This document shows, piece after piece, positions 1,142 to 61,691 of a stretch of DNA of 64,000 bases (position 1 is its first letter; each line of letters starts with the position of its first letter). Position numbers and translations under genes: made by a program. The stretch is from NCBI RefSeq assembly GCF_055900595.2, contig NZ_CM148325.1. One strand, written 5' to 3'. The notes beneath the pieces were generated by a model, which saw nothing but the letters and a program-made list of their open reading frames with translations, was not told the origin of the DNA and did no database searches.

Positions 1142-3178
1142 ATGGATACGCCACGCCCACAGTTATTAGATTTTCAATTTCATCAGAATAACGACAGTTT
1201 TACTCTACGTTTTCAAGACCGTCTTATTTTAATCCATAGCAAAGATAATCCTTGCTTATCGATTGGCTCAGGTATAGCGGATATCGATATGTTCCGCGGT
1301 AATTTCAGCATTAAAGATAAATTGCAGGAGAAAATTGCGCTGACCGACGCCATCGTCAGCCAGTCACCGGATGGCTGGTTAATCCATTTCTGCCGTGGTT
1401 CTGACATTAGCGCCACGCTGCATATCTCTACTGACGAACAAGGCCGTTTAGTGCTGAAACTGCAAAACGATGATCGTCACCATAACCGCATCTGGCTGCG
1501 TCTCGCCGCACAACCAGAGGACCATATCTACGGCTGCGGCGAACAATTCTCCTACTTTGATCTGCGCGGCAAACCGTTCCCGCTATGGACCAGTGAACAA
1601 GGCGTTGGTCGCAACAAACAAACCTATGTCACCTGGCAGGCCGACTGCAAAGAGAACGCGGGCGGCGACTATTACTGGACTTTCTTCCCGCAGCCTACTT
1701 TTGTCAGCACGCAGAAGTATTACTGCCATGTCGATAACAGCTGCTATATGAACTTCGACTTCAGTGCTCCGGAATACCATGAACTGGCATTGTGGGAAGA
1801 CAATGCCACCCTGCGTTTTGAATGTGCGGACACATACATCTCCCTGTTGGAAAAATTAACCGCCCTGCTGGGACGTCAGCCAGAACTGCCCGACTGGATT
1901 TATGACGGGGTAACGCTAGGTATTCAGGGCGGGACAGATGTATGCCAGAAGAAACTGGACACCATGCGTAACGCGGGCGTGAAGGTCAACGGCATCTGGG
2001 CGCAGGACTGGTCCGGGATCCGTATGACCTCTTTTGGCAAACGTGTGATGTGGAACTGGAAGTGGAACAGTGAAAACTACCCACAGTTAGATTCCCGCAT
2101 CAAGCAATGGAAAGAAGAAGGCGTGCAGTTCCTCGCCTACATCAACCCGTATGTTGCCAGCGATAAAGATCTCTGCGAAGAAGCGGCGCAACATGGCTAT
2201 CTGGCAAAAGATGCCTCTGGCGGTGACTATCTGGTGGAATTTGGGGAGTTTTACGGCGGCGTTGTCGATTTGACCAATCCTGAAGCCTATTCCTGGTTTA
2301 AAGAGGTCATCAAGAAAAACATGATCGAATTGGGCTGCGGCGGCTGGATGGCAGATTTTGGCGAATATTTGCCGACCGATACGTATCTGCATAACGGCGT
2401 TAGCGCCGAAATTATGCATAACGCCTGGCCCGCACTGTGGGCGAAATGTAACTACGAAGCCCTTGAAGAAACGGGCAAGCTTGGCGAGATCCTTTTCTTT
2501 ATGCGCGCCGGTTCTACCGGTAGCCAGAAATACTCCACCATGATGTGGGCGGGCGACCAGAACGTCGACTGGAGTCTGGACGATGGCCTGGCGTCGGTTG
2601 TTCCGGCGGCGCTCTCGCTGGCGATGACCGGGCATGGCCTGCATCACAGTGACATTGGCGGTTACACCACCCTGTTTGAGATGAAGCGCAGCAAAGAGCT
2701 GCTGCTGCGCTGGTGCGATTTCAGCGCCTTCACGCCGATGATGCGCACCCACGAAGGTAACCGTCCTGGCGACAACTGGCAGTTTGACGGCGACGCGGAA
2801 ACCATCGCCCATTTTGCCCGTATGACCACCGTCTTCACCACCCTGAAACCTTACCTCAAAGACGCCGTCGCGCAGAACGCGAAGTCCGGTCTGCCCGTTA
2901 TGCGCCCGCTGTTCCTGCATTACGAAGACGATGCACACACCTACACCCTGAAATATCAGTACCTGCTGGGCCGCGACATTCTGGTCGCTCCGGTGCACGA
3001 GCAAGGTCGCAGCGACTGGACGCTCTATCTGCCAGAGGATAACTGGGTCCACACCTGGAGCGGAGAAACCTTCCACGGCGGAGAAGTCACCGTTGAAGCG
3101 CCCATCGGCAAACCGCCGGTCTTTTATCGCGCCGACAGCGAATGGGCTGCACTGTTCGCCTCGTTAAAAAGCATCTAA
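1142..3178 (+). CDS. yihQ: Sulfoquinovosidase (GH31 alpha-glucosidase family)
   Basis: 678-aa ORF matching my recollection of E. coli YihQ in length and sequence; GGAG precedes the ATG. Confidence 0.9.
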   Translation: MDTPRPQLLDFQFHQNNDSFTLRFQDRLILIHSKDNPCLSIGSGIADIDMFRGNFSIKDKLQEKIALTDAIVSQSPDGWLIHFCRGSDISATLHISTDEQGRLVLKLQNDDRHHNRIWLRLAAQPEDHIYGCGEQFSYFDLRGKPFPLWTSEQGVGRNKQTYVTWQADCKENAGGDYYWTFFPQPTFVSTQKYYCHVDNSCYMNFDFSAPEYHELALWEDNATLRFECADTYISLLEKLTALLGRQPELPDWIYDGVTLGIQGGTDVCQKKLDTMRNAGVKVNGIWAQDWSGIRMTSFGKRVMWNWKWNSENYPQLDSRIKQWKEEGVQFLAYINPYVASDKDLCEEAAQHGYLAKDASGGDYLVEFGEFYGGVVDLTNPEAYSWFKEVIKKNMIELGCGGWMADFGEYLPTDTYLHNGVSAEIMHNAWPALWAKCNYEALEETGKLGEILFFMRAGSTGSQKYSTMMWAGDQNVDWSLDDGLASVVPAALSLAMTGHGLHHSDIGGYTTLFEMKRSKELLLRWCDFSAFTPMMRTHEGNRPGDNWQFDGDAETIAHFARMTTVFTTLKPYLKDAVAQNAKSGLPVMRPLFLHYEDDAHTYTLKYQYLLGRDILVAPVHEQGRSDWTLYLPEDNWVHTWSGETFHGGEVTVEAPIGKPPVFYRADSEWAALFASLKSI

Positions 3179-3223
3179 TCACGTCCGCCCGTGGGGAAAC
3201 TCACGGGCACAGGGAGAACAACG

Positions 3224-4609
3224 ATGAGTCACATCACAACGGAAGATCCGGCTACTTTACGCCTGCCCTTTAAAGAGAAACTCTCTTACGGTATCGGCGA
3301 TCTGGCCTCTAACATCCTGCTGGATATCGGCACGCTTTATCTTTTGAAGTTTTATACCGACGTTCTGGGGCTGCCCGGTACCTATGGCGGCATTATCTTT
3401 TTGATTTCGAAGTTCTTTACTGCGTTTACCGATATGGGTACCGGCATCATGCTCGATTCCCGACGCAAGATCGGTCCAAAAGGTAAGTTCCGTCCTTTTA
3501 TTCTGTATGCGTCATTCCCGGTCACCTTACTGGCGATCGCCAACTTTGTCGGCACACCGTTTGATGTCACCGGTAAAACGGTGATGGCCACTATCCTGTT
3601 TATGCTCTACGGGCTGTTTTTCAGCATGATGAACTGCTCTTATGGCGCAATGGTCCCCGCTATTACCAAAAACCCCAACGAACGCGCATCACTGGCGGCA
3701 TGGCGTCAGGGTGGCGCTACATTGGGCCTGCTGCTTTGTACGGTGGGATTCGTGCCGGTTATGAATCTTATCGAGGGTAATCAGCAACTTGGCTATATCT
3801 TCGCCGCCACGCTGTTTTCACTGTTCGGCCTGCTGTTTATGTGGATCTGCTATTCGGGCGTGAAAGAGCGTTATGTCGAAACGCAACCTGCAAATCCGGC
3901 GCAAAAGCCAGGCTTGTTGCAGTCTTTCCGCGCAATTGCCGGTAACCGCCCGCTGTTCATTTTGTGCATTGCTAACCTCTGTACCTTAGGGGCATTTAAC
4001 GTCAAGCTCGCCATTCAGGTCTATTACACCCAGTACGTGCTTAACGATCCCATCCTGTTGTCATATATGGGATTTTTCAGCATGGGCTGTATTTTCATCG
4101 GCGTGTTCCTGATGCCTGGTGCAGTCAGACGTTTTGGTAAGAAGAAGGTCTATATCGGCGGCCTGCTGATTTGGGTGCTGGGCGATCTGCTCAACTATTT
4201 CTTCGGCGGCGGCTCGGTCAGTTTTGTGGCGTTCTCCTGCCTGGCATTCTTCGGCTCGGCGTTTGTTAACAGCCTGAACTGGGCACTGGTTTCCGACACC
4301 GTCGAGTACGGCGAGTGGCGCACCGGCGTTCGTTCGGAAGGTACGGTCTACACCGGCTTCACCTTCTTTCGCAAAGTATCTCAGGCGCTGGCAGGTTTCT
4401 TCCCAGGCTGGATGCTGACGCAAATCGGCTATGTGCCAAACGTGGCGCAGGCTGACCATACCATCGAAGGTTTACGCCAGCTGATCTTCATCTACCCAAG
4501 CGCACTGGCGGTAGTCACCATTGTTACGATGGGTTGCTTCTACAGTCTGAACGAGAAAATGTACGTCCGCATTGTTGAAGAAATAGAAGCCCGTAAACGC
4601 ACGGCATAA
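3224..4609 (+). CDS. yihP: GPH-family sugar:cation symporter (putative DHPS/sulfoquinovose transporter)
   Basis: Start placed at internal ATG (MSHITTEDP) preceded by GGGAG; 461 aa, multi-TM, paralogous to the next gene. Confidence 0.85.
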   Translation: MSHITTEDPATLRLPFKEKLSYGIGDLASNILLDIGTLYLLKFYTDVLGLPGTYGGIIFLISKFFTAFTDMGTGIMLDSRRKIGPKGKFRPFILYASFPVTLLAIANFVGTPFDVTGKTVMATILFMLYGLFFSMMNCSYGAMVPAITKNPNERASLAAWRQGGATLGLLLCTVGFVPVMNLIEGNQQLGYIFAATLFSLFGLLFMWICYSGVKERYVETQPANPAQKPGLLQSFRAIAGNRPLFILCIANLCTLGAFNVKLAIQVYYTQYVLNDPILLSYMGFFSMGCIFIGVFLMPGAVRRFGKKKVYIGGLLIWVLGDLLNYFFGGGSVSFVAFSCLAFFGSAFVNSLNWALVSDTVEYGEWRTGVRSEGTVYTGFTFFRKVSQALAGFFPGWMLTQIGYVPNVAQADHTIEGLRQLIFIYPSALAVVTIVTMGCFYSLNEKMYVRIVEEIEARKRTA

Positions 4610-14626: not shown

Positions 14627-14720
14627 ATTGCACCAATATGGTGCTTAATGTTTCCATTGAAGCACTATATTGGTGCAATATTCACATCGTGGTGCAGCCC
14701 TTTTGCACGATGGTGCGCAT
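14627..14720 (+). promoter_or_regulatory. NtrC (NRI) enhancer binding sites upstream of glnA
   Basis: Repeated TGCACC-N5-GGTGCA-like dyads (tgcaccaatatggtgc, gcactatattggtgca, ggtgcagcccttttgcac). Confidence 0.7.
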
Positions 14721-30704: not shown

Positions 30705-30773
30705 AGTAATGCTCCTTACTCTTGAGACAGACACGTTAGCAGGGTCAATCCCACAATAAAAGAGGCGATATCG

Positions 30774-55061: not shown

Positions 55062-55179
55062 AACGCCTCCAGCCTCATTACTTACCCGCACAAAATAGAA
55101 TTGTGCTGTACAAACGTCCAGTTTGAAAGAAGTTTCCTGCGAGGCGCTACGCAAAACGATCCTTAATTTTTATTATTTT

Positions 55180-55215
55180 ATCCCACAATATGAGACGTAG
55201 TTTATATTGTGGGAT
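55180..55215. promoter_or_regulatory. Perfect 12-bp inverted repeat (candidate IclR-type operator)
   Basis: atcccacaatat (55180-55191) and atattgtgggat (55204-55215) are exact reverse complements separated by 12 bp, about 60 bp upstream of the IclR-family gene. Confidence 0.5.
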
Positions 55216-55276
55216 ATATCACCTTTTCCCCACGTCATTATGTGGAACACTTCAGCAATATCATCAGGAGAAACGT

Positions 55277-56044
55277 ATGGCAGATACCTCTTCAACCACC
55301 GCTGGCGCACAAACGTTATTACGCGGGCTGGCGGTTCTTAATGCTGTTTATAACGGCTGCCATGACCTGAAAAGTATCGGCGAGTTCACCGGCACGACCC
55401 GGAGCACAACCCATCGTTTAGTCACCGTTCTGGTGGAACAACGCTACCTGCGCCACGTCCCAACGCAGGGCTACCAACTGGGCGCCAAACTGATCGAATT
55501 CGGTGCCAGAGCACTGGAAAGCACCTCGCTGTACGAAGTTGCGCTGCCCGTTTTGCAGCGTCTGGCCCGTTACACCCTGGACACCGTGCATCTGGGGATC
55601 GTTGAAGGCGGCGAAGTGCTGTATCTGGAGAAGATCAACAGTCAGCGTGGGCTGGAAATGCGCTCACGCCCAGGCCATCGCATGCCACTGGCAATCACCG
55701 GCATCGGCAAGGCATTGATCCTCAACCGAACAGAAGAAGAGTGGCGCACGCTGTTTAAGACCTGTGGTGATGAAACAAAACTGGGCACATTTATTCAGAA
55801 CATGCGTCGTTATGCCGCCAGTGGTTTTGCTTTTGATCTGGAAGAGAACGAGCCGACTATCCGTTGCGTTGCAGCGCCGGTTTACAACGCCCGGGATGAA
55901 ATTGTGGCGGCTATTTCTGTCGCCAGTACCACTACGTATATGTCACTGGCGCGTCTGGAAGAACTGGCACCTTACGTCAAATCCTGTGCAGAAGAGATAT
56001 CCGCTGAACTGGGCTGGGGTAAGCACGTCCACAAAAATAAATAA
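55277..56044 (+). CDS. IclR-family transcriptional regulator
   Basis: 255 aa from MADTSS with CAGGAG upstream; N-terminal HTH and C-terminal effector domain. Confidence 0.85.
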   Translation: MADTSSTTAGAQTLLRGLAVLNAVYNGCHDLKSIGEFTGTTRSTTHRLVTVLVEQRYLRHVPTQGYQLGAKLIEFGARALESTSLYEVALPVLQRLARYTLDTVHLGIVEGGEVLYLEKINSQRGLEMRSRPGHRMPLAITGIGKALILNRTEEEWRTLFKTCGDETKLGTFIQNMRRYAASGFAFDLEENEPTIRCVAAPVYNARDEIVAAISVASTTTYMSLARLEELAPYVKSCAEEISAELGWGKHVHKNK

Positions 56045-56067
56045 ACCATGACTAAAGGAAACGGCTA

Positions 56068-57072
56068 ATGTCGGGAAACACCTCATTTATTGCCCTGGAC
56101 TGGGGAACGTCATCGCTTCGGGCATGGCGTTTTGGCGACTCACCCAATCCACAAGAAAAACGTGAATTCCCGTGGGGGATCATGAAATTACCCTCCCAGG
56201 CAGCAACACGTGAGGACGCTTTCCACGATACGTTTTTACGTGTCTGCGGCGACTGGCTGGCACAATCCCAATGCCCGGTTCTGGCTTGCGGCATGATCGG
56301 CAGTGCGCAAGGGTGGCAACCCGCAGCTTATTTACCTTGCCCGGTCACTCTCGAGGGTCTGGCAAAGCAGTTGACGCCTGTTATCTACCAGCAGCAGACA
56401 ATGCTGCACATCATTCCCGGCGTGATTAAAGAAGGTGAAATGCCCGAAGTGATGCGTGGCGAAGAGACACAAATCTTCGGTGCTATCTCGATGGAACCGG
56501 CCCTGCAAAACGCGATCCGCCAGGGTATGCCTGTGCTGATTGGCTTACCTGGCACACATGCGAAATGGGCGGTAGTTGAAAACAACACCATTACCGATTT
56601 CCGAACCTTTATGACAGGCGAGTTATTTGATGTTTTATCCCGCCATTCGATTCTCGGTGCCACCATGCGTTCGGGAGATGAACCGCACTGGGATGCCTTC
56701 ACCCATGGGCTGAAATCAGCACAAGAGCATCATCAGACCGGATTATTATCGACGCTGTTTTCGACCCGTTCGCGCCTGCTGACCAGTAATCTTACGCCGT
56801 CCTCGCAGGGGGATTACCTTTCAGGATTACTGATAGGCCATGAATTATGCGGTCTGGCATCCAGTTTGCTACGTGATTTACCCGCCACAACACCGATCGC
56901 CTTAATCGGTAGCGCCACTCTGAACAGCCGCTATTCACAAGCATTCAGCCACGTTTTTCCCGACAGACAGCTACACGCCATTCCTAATGCCACTGAACAG
57001 GGGTTATGGCGAATCGCCCACGCTGCCGGGCTACTCTCCACCAACGCCAGGGAATGTACTCATGCCATTTAA
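56068..57072 (+). CDS. 2-dehydro-3-deoxygalactonokinase (DgoK)-like sugar-acid kinase
   Basis: 334-aa ORF; N-terminal FIALDWGTSSLRAW resembles the DgoK family start. Confidence 0.7.
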   Translation: MSGNTSFIALDWGTSSLRAWRFGDSPNPQEKREFPWGIMKLPSQAATREDAFHDTFLRVCGDWLAQSQCPVLACGMIGSAQGWQPAAYLPCPVTLEGLAKQLTPVIYQQQTMLHIIPGVIKEGEMPEVMRGEETQIFGAISMEPALQNAIRQGMPVLIGLPGTHAKWAVVENNTITDFRTFMTGELFDVLSRHSILGATMRSGDEPHWDAFTHGLKSAQEHHQTGLLSTLFSTRSRLLTSNLTPSSQGDYLSGLLIGHELCGLASSLLRDLPATTPIALIGSATLNSRYSQAFSHVFPDRQLHAIPNATEQGLWRIAHAAGLLSTNARECTHAI

Positions 57073-57691
57073 TACGCTTTTGCAAAAAACCGGGTTAGTC
57101 GCCATTTTACGCGGCGTGAAACCGGATGAGATTGTCGCCATCGGTGAAAAGCTGTATGCCGCTGGATTTCGCCTGATTGAGATTCCCATGAACTCGCCGG
57201 AGCCGTTGCAAAGTATCAGTTTACTGCGCGACGCCCTGCCTAAGGACTGCCTGGTCGGAGCCGGAACTGTGCTTTCGGTGGAGCAAGTCGTCGCGGTTAA
57301 AGAGGCTGGAGGCCAGATTATCGTAATGCCGCATTGCGATACTGCGGTGATCCGTCGTGCCCGTGCGCTGGGTATGTATTGTGCGCCTGGCGTCGCTACG
57401 CCCACCGAAGCTTTTGCTGCCATTGAACATGGCGCCAATGCCATCAAGCTGTTCCCGGCTGAACAAATTACGCCTGAAGTCACCAAAGCCTGGCGTGCGG
57501 TTATTCCACAATCCGTTCCGATGTTACCGGTTGGCGGTATCACTCCAGACACAATGGCGCGTTATCTGAGCCACGGCGCAAACGGCTTTGGCCTCGGTTC
57601 TGCGCTATATCGCCCCGGCATGACGCCAGAGCAAGTCTATGAAAATGCAGTACTGTTTATGAACGCATGGAACAATTTAAATAGCAAATAA
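57062..57691 (+). CDS. 2-dehydro-3-deoxy-6-phosphogalactonate/KDPG-type aldolase (DgoA/Eda-like)
   Basis: 209 aa from MPFNTLLQKTGLVAILRG; start overlaps the kinase gene stop. Confidence 0.75.
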   Translation: MPFNTLLQKTGLVAILRGVKPDEIVAIGEKLYAAGFRLIEIPMNSPEPLQSISLLRDALPKDCLVGAGTVLSVEQVVAVKEAGGQIIVMPHCDTAVIRRARALGMYCAPGVATPTEAFAAIEHGANAIKLFPAEQITPEVTKAWRAVIPQSVPMLPVGGITPDTMARYLSHGANGFGLGSALYRPGMTPEQVYENAVLFMNAWNNLNSK

Positions 57692-57715
57692 CTGATAAAT
57701 AAGGATATAAAAGCA

Positions 57716-58690
57716 ATGATAAAACATCTTACCTTACCGAAAAAAATGGCTGCAATGGTACTTCTTGCCGGCGCTGCCCTCAGCACTGCGCCTGTGCAGG
57801 CGGCCTCCTGGCCAACCAAACAGATCGAGTTAGTCGTACCCTACGCGGCCGGAGGCGGTACGGATCTGGTTGCCCGTGCCTTTGCTGATGCCGCCAAAAA
57901 CCATTTGCCCGTCAGCATCGGGGTTATCAATAAACCTGGCGGTGGCGGCGCTATCGGCCTGAGTGAAATCGCCGCTGCCCGCCCTAACGGTTACAAAATG
58001 GGTTTAGGCACGGTTGAACTGACCACCCTTCCCAGTCTCGGAATGGTGCGTTTTAAAACCAGCGACTTTAAACCCATTGCCCGTCTGAATGCGGATCCGG
58101 CTGCTATCACCGTCCGTGCCGATGCACCGTGGAATAGCTATGAAGAATTTATGACTTACGCCAAAGCGAATCCCGGAAAAGTACGCATTGGTAACTCAGG
58201 CACCGGAGCAATCTGGCATCTGGCGGCAGCTGCACTGGAAGACAAAACGGGCGTGAAGTTTTCTCATGTCCCATATGACGGCGCAGCCCCTGCCATTACA
58301 GGCCTGTTAGGCGGGCATATTGAAGCGGTTTCCGTAAGCCCAGGTGAAGTTATCAATCATGTGAAAGGCGGCAAGCTGAAGACACTGGTAGTGATGGCGG
58401 ATGAACATATGAAAACCATGCCTGACGTACCGACGTTAAAAGAGAAAGGCGTTGATCTCTCCATCGGCACCTGGCGCGGCCTGATTGTGTCGCAAAAAAC
58501 GCCGCAGGATGTGGTGGATGTTCTGGCAAAGGCAGCAAAAGAGACGGCTGAAGAGCCTGCATTCCAGGATGCGCTGCAAAAGTTGAATCTCAACTATGCA
58601 TGGCTTGATGGTGCCAGCTTCCAGACCCAAATCAACGAGCAGGAAAAGTACTTTGACGAGCTGCTGACTCGCCTGGGCCTGAAAAAATAA
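57716..58690 (+). CDS. Tripartite tricarboxylate transporter substrate-binding protein (TctC/Bug family)
   Basis: 324-aa ORF with signal peptide; Bug-family-like. Confidence 0.8.
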   Translation: MIKHLTLPKKMAAMVLLAGAALSTAPVQAASWPTKQIELVVPYAAGGGTDLVARAFADAAKNHLPVSIGVINKPGGGGAIGLSEIAAARPNGYKMGLGTVELTTLPSLGMVRFKTSDFKPIARLNADPAAITVRADAPWNSYEEFMTYAKANPGKVRIGNSGTGAIWHLAAAALEDKTGVKFSHVPYDGAAPAITGLLGGHIEAVSVSPGEVINHVKGGKLKTLVVMADEHMKTMPDVPTLKEKGVDLSIGTWRGLIVSQKTPQDVVDVLAKAAKETAEEPAFQDALQKLNLNYAWLDGASFQTQINEQEKYFDELLTRLGLKK

Positions 58691-58706
58691 TCCCGAGGTA
58701 CGGTCG

Positions 58707-59213
58707 ATGAACACAAAACAGTCTGTTGCTCAACTCGCCGTACCGCACCGCAAGCGCCTTTCATCCACTGTGGTGGTGGCGCTGTTACTTTGTGTGGTTG
58801 CTGGCGCGGTGATAATTAATGCCGCTGATTTTCCAGCAACTGCCATTGAAACGGATCCCGGTGCAAGTGCCTTCCCTACTTTCTATGCCTGCGCTCTGAT
58901 TGTGCTCGCTGTCTTACTTGTGATACGCGATCTTTTGCTGGCAAAACCAGTCCCTTGCGCCAACGCACAGGAAAAACCGGCATTCAGGAAAACGGCAACA
59001 GGAATTGCGGCAACCGCGTTTTATATCGTGGCAATGAGCTACTGCGGTTATCTCATTACTACTCCTGTTTTCCTCATCGTCATTATGGCATTGATGGGCT
59101 ACAGGCGATGGGTACTCACACCGGGTATTGCGCTGCTGTTAACGGCAATCCTCTGGTTGCTGTTTGTCGAAGCGTTACAGGTGCCATTGCCTGTCGGCAC
59201 ATTTTTCGAATAA
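58707..59213 (+). CDS. Tripartite tricarboxylate transporter small membrane subunit (TctB-like)
   Basis: 168-aa ORF with four predicted TM segments, positioned between TctC-like and TctA-like genes. Confidence 0.7.
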   Translation: MNTKQSVAQLAVPHRKRLSSTVVVALLLCVVAGAVIINAADFPATAIETDPGASAFPTFYACALIVLAVLLVIRDLLLAKPVPCANAQEKPAFRKTATGIAATAFYIVAMSYCGYLITTPVFLIVIMALMGYRRWVLTPGIALLLTAILWLLFVEALQVPLPVGTFFE

Positions 59214-59225
59214 CAGGGGCCTGCA

Positions 59226-60716
59226 ATGTTTGAAAGTGAACTTTTAACTCAGGGGTTTTCGACATTACTCAGTAATCCTCAGGCGCTGCTGTTTGCCACG
59301 TTTGGAGTGATGCTGGGTATTATGATTGGCGCTCTGCCTGGCCTGACAGCGACCATGGGTGTGGCGATTTTGCTGCCTTTCACCTACGGCATGGAGCCTG
59401 TTTCTGGCTTGTTGATGATTTGCGGTGTCTTTTTTGGTGGTGTGTATGGTGGTTCTATCACCGCAATTTTGCTCAAAATTCCCGGTACGCCTGCCGCCGC
59501 TGCCACCGCCATTGACGGATATGAGCTGACGAAGCAGGGAAAAGCCGGGCTGGCGTTAAGTGCCGCCACGTTCTCTTCTTTTAGCGGTGGAACGCTCAGC
59601 ATTATCGTATTGATGTTTCTCTCTCCGGTACTTGCCAGTTGGGCGTTGAAATTTAGTGCCTCGGAGTCCTTCGCCCTGGCAACCTTCGGACTGAGCATTA
59701 TTGCCAGTATTTCCGGTGAGTCACTGATTAAAGGGCTGATTGCCGGGGTTGGCGGATTGCTTATCGCAACGATAGGCCTTGATCCAATGGGCGGTTTTCC
59801 ACGCTTTACAGGTGGATTTGTGGAGCTGATGAATGTGCCATTTATCCCGGTGATGATTGGTTTATTTGCTGCTTCAGAAGCATTCCGCTCTATGGAGCAA
59901 AACCAGCAAATTCGTCAGGGGGCGAAGGTGGCTATCGGCAGTCTGTTACTGCCCTGGCAAACACTACGCCGCATCGCATTAACCATTTTGCGCTCATCAG
60001 GATTAGGGGTTTTTATCGGCATGATCCCCGGTGCGGGGGCAGATATTGCAGCTTTTGTTGCCTATAACGAAACTCGTCGTTTCAGTAAGACGCCTGAAAA
60101 CTTTGGTAAGGGTGAGATTAAGGCGGTGGCCTCCTGTGAGGCAGGCGCGAATGGCTGCACCGGTGGCGCATTGTTACCTATGCTGACGTTGGGGATCCCA
60201 GGCGATGCGGTAACTGCCATCATGCTGGGCGCGTTAACGTTACAAGGGATGCAGCCAGGCCCACTTATGTTTACCGACCACGGCGATATGGTTTATACGC
60301 TGTTTGTCGGCATGATCTTTTGTTACTTCATGCTGCTAGTTCTTGGACTGCTCTCTTTGAAAGTCATCGGTAACGTGGTGAAGATCCCCGGCAATATTCT
60401 CACGCCGATGATCCTCGCACTTTGTGTGGTCGGGACTTATGCGCTGAACAATAGCCTGTTTGATGTTGGCATTATGCTGATTGCAGGCGTGGTGGGCTAT
60501 TTCATGCAAAAAGGGGGGTATCCGGCATCACCCGTAGTGCTGGCATTGATTATGGGGCCAATGGCGGAAAGTAATTTTCGCCGTGCGCTGTCGCTTTCTG
60601 GTGGGTCACTCGACTTTCTGTATACCCGACCGATAACCCTGGCATTGCTGACACTGGCAGCCTTTACGCTACTGACGCCAATAATACGCAAAATTATGCG
60701 CTTACGGCGTCAGTAA
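59226..60716 (+). CDS. Tripartite tricarboxylate transporter large permease (TctA-like)
   Basis: 496-aa polytopic ORF. Confidence 0.8.
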   Translation: MFESELLTQGFSTLLSNPQALLFATFGVMLGIMIGALPGLTATMGVAILLPFTYGMEPVSGLLMICGVFFGGVYGGSITAILLKIPGTPAAAATAIDGYELTKQGKAGLALSAATFSSFSGGTLSIIVLMFLSPVLASWALKFSASESFALATFGLSIIASISGESLIKGLIAGVGGLLIATIGLDPMGGFPRFTGGFVELMNVPFIPVMIGLFAASEAFRSMEQNQQIRQGAKVAIGSLLLPWQTLRRIALTILRSSGLGVFIGMIPGAGADIAAFVAYNETRRFSKTPENFGKGEIKAVASCEAGANGCTGGALLPMLTLGIPGDAVTAIMLGALTLQGMQPGPLMFTDHGDMVYTLFVGMIFCYFMLLVLGLLSLKVIGNVVKIPGNILTPMILALCVVGTYALNNSLFDVGIMLIAGVVGYFMQKGGYPASPVVLALIMGPMAESNFRRALSLSGGSLDFLYTRPITLALLTLAAFTLLTPIIRKIMRLRRQ

Positions 60717-60770
60717 TTGATATCGCTCCCCGACGTTGGGGAGTATGAGACTGATGACAAACGCTAAATT

Positions 60771-60871
60771 GCCTGATGCGCTGCGCTTATCAGGCCTACC
60801 ACAGAAATGCAATATATTGAATTTGCATGCTTTTGTAGGCCGGATAAGGCGATCACGCCGCATCCGGCATG
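60771..60871. repeat. REP elements
   Basis: gcctgatgcgctgcgcttatcaggcctac and gtaggccggataaggcgatcacgccgcatccggcatg. Confidence 0.7.
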
Positions 60872-60901
60872 AACAAAGCACACGTTAACAACAATCGGAA
60901 T

Positions 60902-60928
60902 GCTCCCCTAAGCCAGGGAGCGTTTTTT
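60902..60928 (+). terminator. Rho-independent terminator, + strand orientation
   Basis: gctccc ... gggagc hairpin followed by TTTTTT; the T-tract overlaps the udp stop codon. Confidence 0.6.
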
Positions 60929-61691
60929 ATTTCAGCAGACGACGCGCCGCTTCCACCACGATTTTCACCGCATGGCTTTCGGTTTGTTTCATCGTCTCAG
61001 CATTCGGGATCTCTTGTTGGGTACGATTGACGATAACGCCCGCCACCATACCGGCACGAAGGCCCTGGCTTGCACACATGGTCAGCAGGGTTGCAGATTC
61101 CATTTCATAGTTCATTACGCCCATCGCCTGCCACTCTTCCATAGAACCTTTAAAGTGACGAACTACGCGACCAGAGTAAGTATCGTAACGTTCCTGACCT
61201 GGGTAGAAGGTATCAGAAGAAGCCGTCACGCCAACGTGAGTCGTCGCGCCGATGGATTTCGCAGCCTCAACCAGCGCGGTCGTACATTCGAAATCAGCGA
61301 CAGCCGGGAATTCCAGCGGTGCGAAGTGCAGGCTCGCGCCATCCAGACGAACAGACGCCGTGGTAACCAGGACATCGCCAACATTAATATGCGGCTGAAT
61401 AGCGCCCGTTGTACCGATACGCAGGAAGGTGCGAATGCCCAGCTGTGCCAGCTCTTCAACTGCAATAGAGGTAGACGGGCCGCCGATACCGGTAGAGCAG
61501 ACGATAACAGGTTTACCATCCAGCTCTGCACGCCAGGTGGTGAATTCGCGGTGAGATGCCAGCTTAACCGGCTTATCCATCAGCGCGGCGATCTTTTCCA
61601 CACGATCCGGGTCGCCAGGGACGATGGCAAGCGTAGCCCCTTGTAAATCGTTTTTAGTGAGGCCGAGATGAAAAACATCAGACTTGGACAT
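60927..61691 (-). CDS. udp: Uridine phosphorylase
   Basis: 253 aa from [28 protein letters not shown]. Confidence 0.95.

What the first reader, a model, noticed from the sequence alone, without database searches (positions are those of the whole stretch)
55180..55215. Perfect 12-bp inverted repeat in the rmuC/IclR divergent promoter region
atcccacaatat and atattgtgggat are exact reverse complements with a 12-bp spacer, about 60 bp upstream of the IclR-family gene start. This is a strong candidate operator for the adjacent regulator, controlling the island operon and possibly rmuC read-through.
Basis: seen in the sequence. Interest (0 to 1): 0.45.

Follow-up and report, generated by a model that had tools for sequence, protein, structure and literature searches.

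The report
Tandem operator boxes of IclR regulator
The inverted repeat is real and is almost certainly the DNA site where the neighbouring IclR-type regulator binds to control its own sugar-acid operon, but it is two ordinary 17-bp binding boxes side by side rather than one long dyad, a layout already well known for this regulator family.

Summary
Observation confirmed. TATCCCACAATAT (55179-55191) and ATATTGTGGGATA (55204-55216) are perfect 13-bp inverted arms with a 12-bp spacer, far beyond chance. The repeat lies 22 bp inside an accessory E. coli island (55157-60935: IclR regulator, KDGal kinase, KDPGal aldolase, TctCBA) carried by 1456 of 5426 complete genomes.

Comparison with orthologous loci changes the anatomy. 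The functional unit is a 17-bp palindromic box, ATCCCAY-W3-RTGGGAT, present twice: box 1 at 55180-55196 and box 2 at 55199-55215, centres 19 bp apart. The long repeat exists because each box has one strong half and the strong halves face outward.

A matrix built without any Escherichia site ranks box 1 first of 63,984 window positions. In 5 of 8 held-out genera the two best hits of the whole locus are a tandem pair 19-20 bp apart upstream of the regulator gene. This matches published IclR 'group 1' motifs and the 18-22 nt tandem spacing attributed to tetramer binding, and the same motif was predicted in 2021 for an alphaproteobacterial IclR group.

The likely mechanism is autorepression by promoter occlusion; this step is inferred. 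An RNA hairpin, a mobile-element end and a link to rmuC are not supported. Verdict: an ordinary new member of a known kind.

The parts
55179..55191 (.). Left arm of the perfect inverted repeat, TATCCCACAATAT
   Evidence: It is the strong (outer) half plus the centre of box 1.
55204..55216 (.). Right arm of the perfect inverted repeat, ATATTGTGGGATA
   Evidence: It is the centre plus the strong (outer) half of box 2.
55180..55196 (.). Box 1, ATCCCAC-AAT-ATGAGAC: a 17-bp pseudo-palindromic IclR group-1-type site (core 55181-55195, centre 55188, 89 nt before the ATG)
   Evidence: Ranks 1 of 63,984 window positions with a matrix built only from non-Escherichia sites (score 19.3, next best 13.5). 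It matches the Vitiosangium box TCCCACAATATGGGA at 14 of 15 positions. The core is invariant across 7 Escherichia sequences except at two central positions, 55186 and 55188. It matches WTTYCRY-W3-RYGRAAW at 14 of 17 positions (consensus from PMC8222616).
55199..55215 (.). Box 2, AGTTTAT-ATT-GTGGGAT: the second 17-bp site, with a degenerate left half (core 55200-55214, centre 55207, 70 nt before the ATG)
   Evidence: Ranks 11-17 of 63,984 and lies exactly 19 bp from box 1. The core is invariant in Escherichia. Nearly the same box (AGTTTATATTATGGGAT) is found in the enterobacterial relative whose regulator is 72% identical, and a positionally equivalent second box occurs in Phytobacter, Klebsiella, Brenneria, Bordetella, Collimonas, Vitiosangium and the MAGs.
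55196..55199 (.). Hypervariable linker between the box cores (CGTA here; TGGA, TGAA, CAGA, CTGA and CTGT in relatives)
   Evidence: All four columns vary among the Escherichia sequences while both flanking cores are fixed.
55180..55208 (+). Inferred sigma-70 promoter of the island operon: -35 ATCCCA (55180-55185), 17 bp, -10 TATATT (55203-55208), with an expected start near 55215
   Evidence: It is the only plus-strand candidate present in all Escherichia sequences examined. It matches only 8 of 12 positions and falls below the scan tool's threshold. TATATT or TATAAA sits at the same position inside box 2 in the 72% relative, Phytobacter and Klebsiella. This is an inference; the start site has not been mapped.
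55160..55179 (.). A+T-rich tract (TCCTTAATTTTTATTATTTT) directly upstream of box 1; possibly an UP-like element
   Evidence: Sequence only. Several positions vary in Escherichia. Speculative.
55232..55248 (.). Possible weak third box, ACGTCATTATGTGGAAC, inside the imperfect dyad CCCCACGTCATTATGTGGAA (55228-55247)
   Evidence: Matrix score of only 4.3-6.9. Its centre is 33 bp (about three turns) from the centre of box 2. It is partly conserved in Escherichia. Weak evidence.
55277..56044 (+). IclR-family regulator gene (255 aa), the presumed binding protein and first gene of the operon
   Evidence: Pfam HTH_IclR (9e-08) and IclR_C (1.1e-36). PGAP names it an IclR family transcriptional regulator. 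Its best NCBIfam matches, BhcR and KdgR, are far below their cutoffs.
56068..60716 (+). Presumed regulated genes: 2-dehydro-3-deoxygalactonokinase (56068-57072), KDPGal aldolase (57062-57691), tctC (57716-58690), tctB (58707-59213), tctA (59226-60716)
   Evidence: Annotation of the identical locus. The aldolase passes the NCBIfam cutoff (322.9 against 207). The gaps between genes are at most 24 bp or the genes overlap. No further box is found inside the island.
55157..60935 (.). Accessory island between rmuC and udp. Its left junction, 55156|55157, lies 22 bp before the repeat.
   Evidence: Alignment with island-free genomes. Present in 1456 of 5426 complete E. coli genomes.

Best explanation
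The repeat is the operator of the adjacent IclR-family regulator. It consists of two tandem 17-bp pseudo-palindromic boxes of the type ATCCCAY-W3-RTGGGAT: box 1 at 55180-55196 and box 2 at 55199-55215, with centres 19 bp (about two helical turns) apart. Each box would be bound by one dimer, so the pair would be occupied by a tetramer (a dimer of dimers) on one face of the DNA. The long perfect inverted repeat is a by-product: each box has one strong half (TCCCAC.. and ..GTGGGA) and one degenerate half, and in E. coli the strong halves face outward. The boxes overlap the most plausible promoter of the six-gene operon, with the -35 in the outer half of box 1 and the -10 TATATT in the degenerate half of box 2. 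The regulator therefore most likely represses its own operon by excluding RNA polymerase and is released by a sugar-acid effector, probably 2-keto-3-deoxygalactonate or a close analogue. Shown here: the anatomy, the conservation, and the co-occurrence of the boxes with the regulator gene. Inferred: the binding itself, the tetramer stoichiometry, the promoter position, the sign of regulation and the effector.
For: (1) The repeat is real and non-random. (2) The adjacent gene encodes an HTH_IclR + IclR_C protein. (3) An unbiased enumeration of X5-N(3-7)-rcX5 patterns in the upstream regions of 7 independent lineages gives TCCCA-N5-TGGGA as the top pattern, in 4 of 7 lineages; 0 of 1000 null sets reach 4. 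(4) With a matrix built without any Escherichia site, box 1 ranks 1 of 63,984 window positions and box 2 ranks 11-17, exactly 19 bp away. (5) In held-out loci (Phytobacter, Brenneria, Bordetella, a Collimonas-like contig, and an enterobacterial contig whose regulator is 72% identical), the two best hits of each ~7.8-kb locus are a tandem pair 19-20 bp apart, 45-119 nt before the regulator's start codon. (6) Within Escherichia, 2 of 30 box-core positions vary against 27 of 90 in the rest of the intergenic region (Fisher one-sided p=0.006), and all 4 linker positions vary. (7) Both natural arm polymorphisms (55186 C->T in 557 genomes; 55188 A->T in one strain) fall in the degenerate centre of box 1, not in the TCCCA/TGGGA pentamers. 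(8) The box pair follows the regulator gene into different genomic contexts. (9) The geometry matches published IclR-family rules: a group-1 motif (14 of 17 matches for each box to WTTYCRY-W3-RYGRAAW) and tandem sites with 18-22 nt between centres, seen in 94 orthologous groups and attributed to tetramer binding (PMC8222616). The same ATCCCAYAWWRTGGGAT motif in 20-nt tandem is listed there for an alphaproteobacterial group. (10) The dyad occurs once per genome and only where the island is present. (11) On repression: the only plus-strand promoter candidate conserved in all Escherichia sequences examined overlaps both boxes, and the degenerate half of box 2 keeps TATATT/TATAAA at a fixed position in four enterobacterial lineages.
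Against: No binding, footprint, transcription start or expression data exist for this locus in the sources searched. The promoter assignment is weak: 8 of 12 matches, a poor -35, below the scan tool's threshold. If the real promoter lies downstream, for example around CATTAT at 55237-55242, box 2 would be centred near -42, an activator-like position, and the IclR family does include activators (PMC8222616). Box 2 on its own scores modestly (8.6-9.1). Three held-out loci gave no clear pair (Serratia, Pseudomonas, Burkholderia), although in the first two the regulator gene does not head the operon. The effector is guessed from gene content alone. Tetramer stoichiometry is inferred from the spacing, not measured.
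Confidence: 0.8

Rival explanations
1. Same protein and same boxes, but the regulator is an activator or a dual regulator. The real promoter lies downstream of the boxes and the bound tetramer recruits RNA polymerase when the effector is present.
For: The IclR family includes activators and dual regulators (PMC8222616). No strong sigma-70 promoter is detected over the boxes. With a -10 at CATTAT (55237-55242), box 2 would be centred near -42. A weak third box lies at 55232-55248.
Against: The downstream -10 and -35 candidates are poor and not conserved in E. whittamii or Escherichia sp. E1V33. The -10-like TATATT inside box 2 is conserved across four enterobacterial lineages even though it departs from the box consensus. 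From my own knowledge, the closest characterised sugar-acid IclR regulator, KdgR, is a repressor.
Confidence: 0.15
2. One reading: one long dyad whose two 12-bp arms are the two half-sites of a single operator, separated by a 12-bp non-contacted spacer.
For: The arms are perfect and the middle of the spacer is variable.
Against: The arm centres are 25 bp apart, which does not fit a single helix-turn-helix dimer. Spacer bases 55192-55195 and 55200-55203 are invariant. Orthologs keep two self-contained palindromic boxes but no long-range repeat: Klebsiella box 1 matches the reverse complement of its box 2 at only 7 of 15 positions by my count, and the 72% relative and Phytobacter likewise lack the long repeat. 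In addition, 557 E. coli genomes carry an imperfect arm.
Confidence: 0.03
3. The repeat acts as a nucleic-acid hairpin: an RNA stem-loop in a 5' leader (stabiliser or attenuator) or a DNA cruciform, rather than a protein-binding site.
For: As RNA the plus strand folds into a 16-bp stem (three G.U pairs) with a 6-nt loop, -20.3 kcal/mol, z = -6.2. The variable positions 55196-55199 fall in that loop, and the common C->T at 55186 would still pair as a U.G wobble.
Against: No pair shows a compensatory change; 13 of 16 pairs never vary and the two outermost pairs are broken in two species. The A->T change at 55188 breaks a pair. No U-tract follows the stem and no terminator is called there. There is no Rfam match (best E about 0.45). 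Across genera the sequence TCCCA/TGGGA is conserved, not the ability to form the long stem. The only conserved promoter candidate would start transcription at the 3' end of the stem.
Confidence: 0.03
4. The repeat is a structural end of the island, such as a recombination or transposition site left by the event that inserted it, since it sits only 22 bp from the left junction.
For: It is close to the junction at 55156|55157. The island is variably present in E. coli.
Against: There is no second copy near the right junction or anywhere else in the window. No integrase or transposase is annotated in the island. The island occupies the same site, much diverged, in Klebsiella, so it is old. The box pair also occurs at unrelated loci upstream of the orthologous regulators.
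Confidence: 0.01

Closest known systems
IclR-family 'group 1' tandem operators (Suvorova & Gelfand 2021, PMC8222616)
   Same: A 17-nt odd-length palindrome with a 7-3-7 layout. Each E. coli box matches WTTYCRY-W3-RYGRAAW at 14 of 17 positions. There are two sites 19 nt apart, within the 18-22 nt range reported for 94 orthologous groups and attributed to tetramer binding. The sites lie upstream of the regulator's own gene, consistent with the usual autoregulation.
   Different: Position 3/15 of the box is C/G (TCCCA/TGGGA) where the family consensus has T/A. The site centres, at -89 and -70 from the ATG, are slightly further upstream than the main -20 to -80 zone.
The IclR orthologous group with sites at AZC_2272/2273, Cseg_2734/2735/2741/2742, Hbal_2755/2756, M446_4911/4912 and Mnod_6621/6622 (Supplementary Table 2 of PMC8222616)
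   Same: Essentially the same motif (ATCCCATATatTGGGAT, gTCCCAcAaTATGGGAT; Cseg_2741 gTtCCAcAaTATGaGAg against E. coli ATCCCACAATATGAGAC). The same 20-nt tandem arrangement, with one strong and one degenerate box, e.g. gTttCtTtaTgTGGGAT against E. coli AGTTTATATTGTGGGAT.
   Different: Those are alphaproteobacterial loci, mostly divergons. I did not test whether their regulators are orthologs of the E. coli protein, and the table as stored gives no regulon name. The E. coli island is not in the parts of their tables that I could search.
KdgR of Enterobacteria (IclR-family regulator of 2-keto-3-deoxygluconate and pectin catabolism)
   Same: An IclR-family regulator that controls a kinase, an aldolase and a transporter for a 2-keto-3-deoxy sugar acid. 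It is the second-best NCBIfam match, and the KdgR effector domain 1ysp is the second-best solved structure.
   Different: Its score of 123.5 is far below the KdgR cutoff of 275. The KdgR motif RWWGAAACGNCGTTTCAKKA (Table 1 of PMC8222616) is a different, group-2-like sequence that is absent here. KdgR controls a dispersed regulon, whereas this dyad occurs once per genome.
E. coli DgoR and the dgoRKADT operon (D-galactonate)
   Same: It regulates paralogous DgoK and DgoA functions. Orthologs of the present regulator in Bordetella, Collimonas and Vitiosangium sit next to complete dgoK-dgoA-dgoD sets.
   Different: From my own knowledge, DgoR is a GntR/FadR-family protein with an unrelated operator. 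The island lacks a dehydratase and uses a TTT transporter rather than the MFS transporter DgoT.
Predicted IclR-family 'GalR' clustered with dgoK and a TTT transporter in Salinivirga fredricksonii HL-109 (Leyn et al. 2017, PMC5507952)
   Same: The same gene combination (IclR regulator, dgoK, TTT transporter), with a predicted sugar-acid (D-galactonate) effector.
   Different: An alphaproteobacterium. I could not retrieve its motif, and orthology was not tested.

Membership tests
IclR-family operator (group 1, tandem type) | An adjacent gene encodes a protein with an N-terminal HTH_IclR domain and a C-terminal IclR effector domain | tested here: met
   Pfam PF09339 (9e-08) and PF01614 (1.1e-36). 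PDB relatives include 1mkm, KdgR, AllR, IclR and TtgV.
IclR-family operator (group 1, tandem type) | A palindromic 17-18-nt site conforming to GKTYCRY-W3-4-RYGRAMC (subgroup WTTYCRY-W3-RYGRAAW) | tested here: met
   Box 1 ATCCCAC-AAT-ATGAGAC and box 2 AGTTTAT-ATT-GTGGGAT each match at 14 of 17 positions by my count against the consensus. The strong halves deviate only at the symmetric position 3/15 (C/G in place of T/A).
IclR-family operator (group 1, tandem type) | Two sites with 18-22 nt between their centres of symmetry | tested here: met
   Centres at 55188 and 55207, 19 nt apart. Orthologs show 19-20 nt.
IclR-family operator (group 1, tandem type) | The motif is conserved upstream of orthologous regulator genes (phylogenetic footprint) | tested here: met
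   0 of 1000 null sets; rank 1 of 63,984; 5 of 8 held-out lineages; p=0.006.
IclR-family operator (group 1, tandem type) | Physical binding by the regulator, and release or modulation by an effector | not testable with these tools
   This needs EMSA or footprinting with purified protein. No such data were found in the library.
Alphaproteobacterial ATCCCAYAWWRTGGGAT group of PMC8222616 | The same binding motif in 20-nt tandem | tested here: met
   Site lists compared with the E. coli boxes.
Alphaproteobacterial ATCCCAYAWWRTGGGAT group of PMC8222616 | The regulator is an ortholog of that group's transcription factors | not tested
   Those proteins were not retrieved. The 120 best homologs listed are mostly from Enterobacterales and Burkholderiales, and none of the named ones is from those alphaproteobacterial genera.
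KdgR regulon operator | The regulator scores as KdgR and the site matches RWWGAAACGNCGTTTCAKKA | tested here: not met
   NCBIfam KdgR scores 123.5 bits against a cutoff of 275. No GAAAC..GTTTC motif is present in 55157-55276 (motif).
Intrinsic terminator or structured RNA element | A G+C-rich stem followed by a U-tract, or a match to a curated RNA family, or covariation that supports the stem | tested here: not met
   No terminator is called at the repeat. The best Rfam E-values are about 0.45, far below the gathering scores. No compensatory pairs are seen.
Terminal inverted repeat or att site of a mobile element | A matching copy at the other end of the element and a recombinase gene inside it | tested here: not met
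   There is no other copy within 1 mismatch in the window, and no integrase or transposase in the island.

The most novel reading that the evidence does not exclude
Because the strong half-sites face outward and resemble -35 hexamers (ATCCCA), while -10-like hexamers (TATATT on the plus strand, CATATT on the minus strand) lie inside, the dyad could be the symmetric core of two overlapping back-to-back promoters. A single regulator tetramer would then gate transcription both into the island operon and leftward toward rmuC, coupling expression of a DNA-recombination gene to sugar-acid availability in the 27% of E. coli that carry the island.
Probability: 0.05. Interest if true: 0.45.

Novelty: new member of a known kind. 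Interest (0 to 1): 0.22.

Why it matters
It gives a concrete, testable operator and a revised mutagenesis map (four half-sites and a phase-sensitive 2-4 bp linker) for an uncharacterised regulator. That regulator controls an accessory sugar-acid island present in BL21, ST131 (EC958) and about a quarter of complete E. coli genomes. The box consensus (ATCCCAY-W3-RTGGGAT in 19-20 bp tandem) extends a motif previously predicted only in Alphaproteobacteria to Enterobacterales, Burkholderiales-type loci and a myxobacterium. It links regulators placed next to D-galactonate/KDGal and L-rhamnonate pathway genes, which could help annotate those regulons and supply a sensor part for 2-keto-3-deoxy sugar acids. 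It does not reveal a new regulatory principle.

Tried and rejected
(1) Looking for further copies. No other copy of the arm with <=1 mismatch exists in the window. There is no second dyad in any of 5426 E. coli genomes at E<=10, so there is no dispersed regulon of near-identical sites. The matrix runner-up at 30748, upstream of mobA, matches only in its left half and lies among core-genome genes, so it is probably chance.

(2) CRP site. The orientation CCACA..TGTGG is the reverse of TGTGA-N6-TCACA, and the weak TGTGG-N6-TCAGC at 55241-55256 cannot be placed sensibly relative to any start site. Rejected by inspection.

(3) KdgR-type motif. Absent from the region.

(4) RNA hairpin. See the rival explanations.

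(5) Mobile-element end. See the rival explanations.

(6) Literature. Four searches found nothing on this E. coli island or regulator. The BL21 metabolic-model paper does not mention it. The 'GalR' motif of Leyn et al. could not be retrieved from the supplements.

(7) Predicted protein-DNA contacts. Mapping the recognition helix onto the contacts predicted in PMC8222616 was abandoned, because their HTH numbering could not be transferred reliably.

(8) Citrobacter amalonaticus, Serratia odorifera and Pseudomonas loci. In these the regulator gene is not at the head of the operon, and the likely operator region upstream of dgoK lay outside the fetched DNA, so they are uninformative.

(9) The scan tool's only promoter call, on the minus strand (ATGATA-16-CATAAT, 55264 to 55237), was noted. 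It is no more than chance would give (1 found, 1.1 expected).

Full report
**1. The observation.** Window 55180-55191 (atcccacaatat) and 55204-55215 (atattgtgggat) are exact reverse complements separated by 12 bp. The perfect match extends one base outward on each side, giving 13-bp arms at 55179-55191 and 55204-55216. The right arm ends 61 nt before the ATG (55277) of an IclR-family gene, which has an AGGAG at 55266-55270. rmuC runs the other way from 55061. Markov-1 simulations of the window give on average 0.125 perfect inverted repeats with arms >=12 and spacer <=30. The window holds five distinct ones: three that look like terminator stems, one upstream of glnA, and this one.

**2. Where it sits.** The window is Escherichia coli. 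The rmuC/IclR junction is found in 1456 of 5426 complete genomes. The remainder, including K-12 derivatives, match only up to window 55156. Alignment with island-free genomes puts the left junction at 55156|55157 and the right junction at the udp stop codon, near 60935. The 5.8-kb island encodes six proteins: the IclR-family regulator, a 2-dehydro-3-deoxygalactonokinase, a KDPGal aldolase, and a TctC/TctB/TctA tripartite transporter. The genes have gaps of at most 24 bp or overlap, and there is no recombinase. The repeat is therefore the first feature inside the island, 22 bp from its edge.

**3. Variation within Escherichia.** I compared seven sequences: this window, BL21, an APEC strain, EC958, strain SCPM-O-B-8794, Escherichia sp. 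E1V33 and E. whittamii.
- Positions 55181-55195 and 55200-55214 are invariant apart from two changes, 55186 C->T (EC958) and 55188 A->T (SCPM).
- All four positions between them (55196-55199) vary, as do 55215-55217.
- In total 2 of 30 core positions vary, against 27 of 90 in the rest of the island-side intergenic region (Fisher one-sided p=0.006).
They are not the 12-bp arms.
- Over the 44-nt dyad segment, 847 genomes carry the BL21 allele, 557 the EC958 allele with the imperfect left arm, and 16 this window's allele.
- The dyad occurs once per genome and never without the island.

**4. Orthologous loci.** A genome-collection scan with the regulator protein returned loci from other Escherichia, Klebsiella, Citrobacter, a group of proteobacterial MAGs, Sphingomonas, Bifidobacterium, Vitiosangium and others. 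Gene context supports orthology: Klebsiella spallanzanii and K. indica have the same island next to rmuC, and Vitiosangium has the regulator followed by dgoK, dgoA and dgoD. The upstream regions show a short palindrome rather than the long repeat:
- Vitiosangium: TCCCATATTGTGGGA, whose reverse complement TCCCACAATATGGGA matches E. coli 55181-55195 at 14 of 15 positions, with a second box 20 bp downstream.
- Klebsiella: TCCCATATATAGGGA, then 5 bp, then TCTTATAAATAGGGA.
- Sphingomonas: TCTCACTTTATGGGA.
- The MAGs: TCCCACATACTAATA and TACCACATAATGAGA, 19 bp apart.

An unbiased enumeration of all X5-N(3-7)-rcX5 patterns across seven independent lineages puts TCCCA-N5-TGGGA first, in 4 of 7 lineages. 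None of 1000 shuffled data sets reached 4.

**5. Two independent tests of the two-box model.**
(a) A weight matrix was built only from non-Escherichia boxes and scanned over the 64-kb window. It ranks 55180-55196 first of 63,984 positions (19.3, next best 13.5) and 55199-55215 at rank 11-17, exactly 19 bp away.
(b) Eight further lineages were fetched afterwards through protein homologs. In five of them the two best hits in the entire ~7.8-kb locus are a tandem pair just upstream of the regulator gene:
- Phytobacter: -108 and -88.
- Brenneria: -119 and -99.
- Bordetella: -76 and -56.
- A Collimonas-like contig: -65 and -45.
- An enterobacterial contig whose regulator is 72% identical: -105 and -86.

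The gene on the other side differs: ubiE, a LysR-family gene, dgoK, dgoK and rmuC respectively. The boxes therefore belong to the regulator and not to rmuC. The three loci without a clear pair are ones where the regulator gene does not head the operon (Serratia, Pseudomonas), or where the hits are weak (Burkholderia).

**6. Resulting anatomy in E. coli.** Box 1 is ATCCCAC-AAT-ATGAGAC (55180-55196, centre 55188). Box 2 is AGTTTAT-ATT-GTGGGAT (55199-55215, centre 55207). Each has one strong half (ATCCCAC, GTGGGAT) and one degenerate half. The strong halves face outward and the centres are A/T-rich, so together they read as a 13-bp perfect inverted repeat. In the 72% relative, Phytobacter and Klebsiella, box 1 is itself a good palindrome and the long-range repeat disappears while both boxes stay. 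The long repeat is a lineage-specific by-product, not the functional unit.

**7. Comparison with what is known.** Suvorova and Gelfand (PMC8222616) analysed 1340 IclR-family factors.
- They describe a main 'group 1' motif, GKTYCRY-W3-4-RYGRAMC, including a subgroup WTTYCRY-W3-RYGRAAW. They also report that factors of 94 orthologous groups bind tandem palindromes with 18-22 nt between centres, which they relate to tetramer binding with both dimers on one DNA face.
- Each E. coli box matches the subgroup consensus at 14 of 17 positions, and the spacing is 19 nt.
- Their tandem-site table already lists essentially this motif for an alphaproteobacterial group. Examples are ATCCCATATatTGGGAT with gTttCtTtaTgTGGGAT 20 nt away in Methylobacterium, gTCCCAcAaTATGGGAT in Azorhizobium, and gTtCCAcAaTATGaGAg in Caulobacter.
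- I found no description of the E. coli island, its regulator or its operator.
- The regulator has HTH_IclR and IclR_C domains. Its best NCBIfam matches, BhcR and KdgR, lie far below their cutoffs, so it is an unnamed IclR subfamily member.
- Relatives at 45-57% identity sit beside dgoK-dgoA(-dgoD) genes or beside L-rhamnonate dehydratase. The subfamily therefore appears to govern sugar-acid pathways that pass through 2-keto-3-deoxy intermediates.

**8. Mechanism.** Shown: two conserved boxes of IclR type, tied to the regulator gene. Inferred: one dimer per box, hence a tetramer on the pair. The only plus-strand sigma-70-like candidate present in all Escherichia sequences examined is ATCCCA (55180-55185), 17 bp, TATATT (55203-55208). 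It is weak, at 8 of 12 matches, and is not called by the scan tool. However, the degenerate half of box 2 keeps TATATT or TATAAA at the same position in four enterobacterial lineages although it departs from the box consensus, which suggests a second constraint such as a -10 element. On this reading the regulator occludes both promoter hexamers and represses its own six-gene operon until an effector, most plausibly 2-keto-3-deoxygalactonate given the kinase and aldolase, releases it. I put about 0.8 on 'operator of the adjacent regulator, two tandem boxes' and about 0.6 on repression by occlusion. Activation from the same boxes is the main alternative (0.15).

**9. Rivals.**
- RNA hairpin. The plus strand folds well as RNA (16-bp stem, -20.3 kcal/mol, z -6.2), and the Escherichia footprint alone cannot exclude a hairpin. 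Against it: no compensatory change is seen, one natural variant breaks a pair, no U-tract or terminator call follows, nothing in Rfam matches, and across genera it is the sequence TCCCA/TGGGA that is conserved, not the long stem.
- Mobile-element end. Excluded by the lack of a second copy, the lack of a recombinase, the island's age and the presence of the boxes at unrelated loci.
- The literal 12-N12-12 dyad. Contradicted by the invariant inner bases, the 25-bp distance between arm centres, and the orthologs.
- A role in rmuC expression. It has no support. rmuC is divergent, and its conserved upstream region (55062-55156) lies outside the island.

**10. Verdict.** It is a routine autoregulatory operator of a well-described architectural class, for a regulator that has not been studied: a new member of a known kind, and of low to modest interest.

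Noticed in passing
window 14627-14680: The only other perfect >=12-bp inverted repeat in the window that does not look like a terminator (ATTGCACCAATAT, 27-bp spacer, ATATTGGTGCAAT) lies in the typA-glnA intergenic region. From my own knowledge these are the classical tandem NtrC sites upstream of glnA, so it is another long repeat produced by two adjacent dimer sites. Already known biology.
   Followed up: partly
window 30748-30764: ATCCCACAATAAAAGAG, just upstream of the mobA start, is the second-best hit of the box matrix in the window (13.5 against 19.3). Only the left half matches, and it lies among core-genome genes (yihD, mobA), so it is probably chance.
   Followed up: partly
window 55157-60935 (junctions at 55156|55157 and ~60935): The island replaces about 45 bp of the K-12 udp-rmuC spacer, including what looks like the udp terminator hairpin. 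The right junction falls at the udp stop codon, leaving udp one codon longer (765 against 762 nt). Klebsiella carries a much-diverged version at the same site, so the presence/absence pattern in E. coli may reflect loss or replacement rather than recent gain.
   Followed up: partly
window 60770-60870: REP/BIME-like repeats (gcctgatgcgctgcgcttatcaggcctac ... taggccggataaggcg ... gcatccggca) lie between tctA and udp at the right end of the island. They are followed by a hairpin plus T-run at about 60903-60930.
   Followed up: no
window 55228-55248: A second, imperfect dyad CCCCACGTCATTATGTGGAA contains a weak box-like 17-mer (55232-55248, score 4.3-6.9). Its centre is 33 bp (about 3 turns) from box 2. 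It could be a third, low-affinity site or nothing at all.
   Followed up: partly
window 55264-55237 (minus strand): The only promoter-like site called by the scan tool in the region is on the minus strand (ATGATA-16-CATAAT). It points through the operator toward rmuC. One call is what chance alone would give (1.1 expected).
   Followed up: no
L008 3864-4651 (E. coli SCPM-O-B-8794): This strain's copy looks degraded. The regulator allele is 217 aa with a deletion of about 38 aa and 80% identity, the Shine-Dalgarno is changed from AGGAG to AGAAG, and box 1 carries the A->T change at the position equivalent to 55188.
   Followed up: no
L026 (Phytobacter massiliensis) 2456-4268: Here the island, with its box pair, lies directly next to ubiE and no rmuC gene lies between them.
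   Followed up: no
L011 2666-4810; L014 2548-5549: Regulators 45-48% identical to the E. coli protein, in proteobacterial MAGs and in Sphingomonas, are divergent from L-rhamnonate dehydratase. In Sphingomonas the regulator gene is followed by L-rhamnose 1-dehydrogenase. They carry the same box motif, which suggests one DNA specificity shared across regulators placed next to different sugar-acid pathways.
   Followed up: partly
L033, L026, L009, L015 (just downstream of box 2): A conserved ATTTGTGC motif directly follows box 2 in the 72% relative, Phytobacter and both Klebsiella species. It is absent in Escherichia, which has ATATATCACC there. Unexplained.
   Followed up: no
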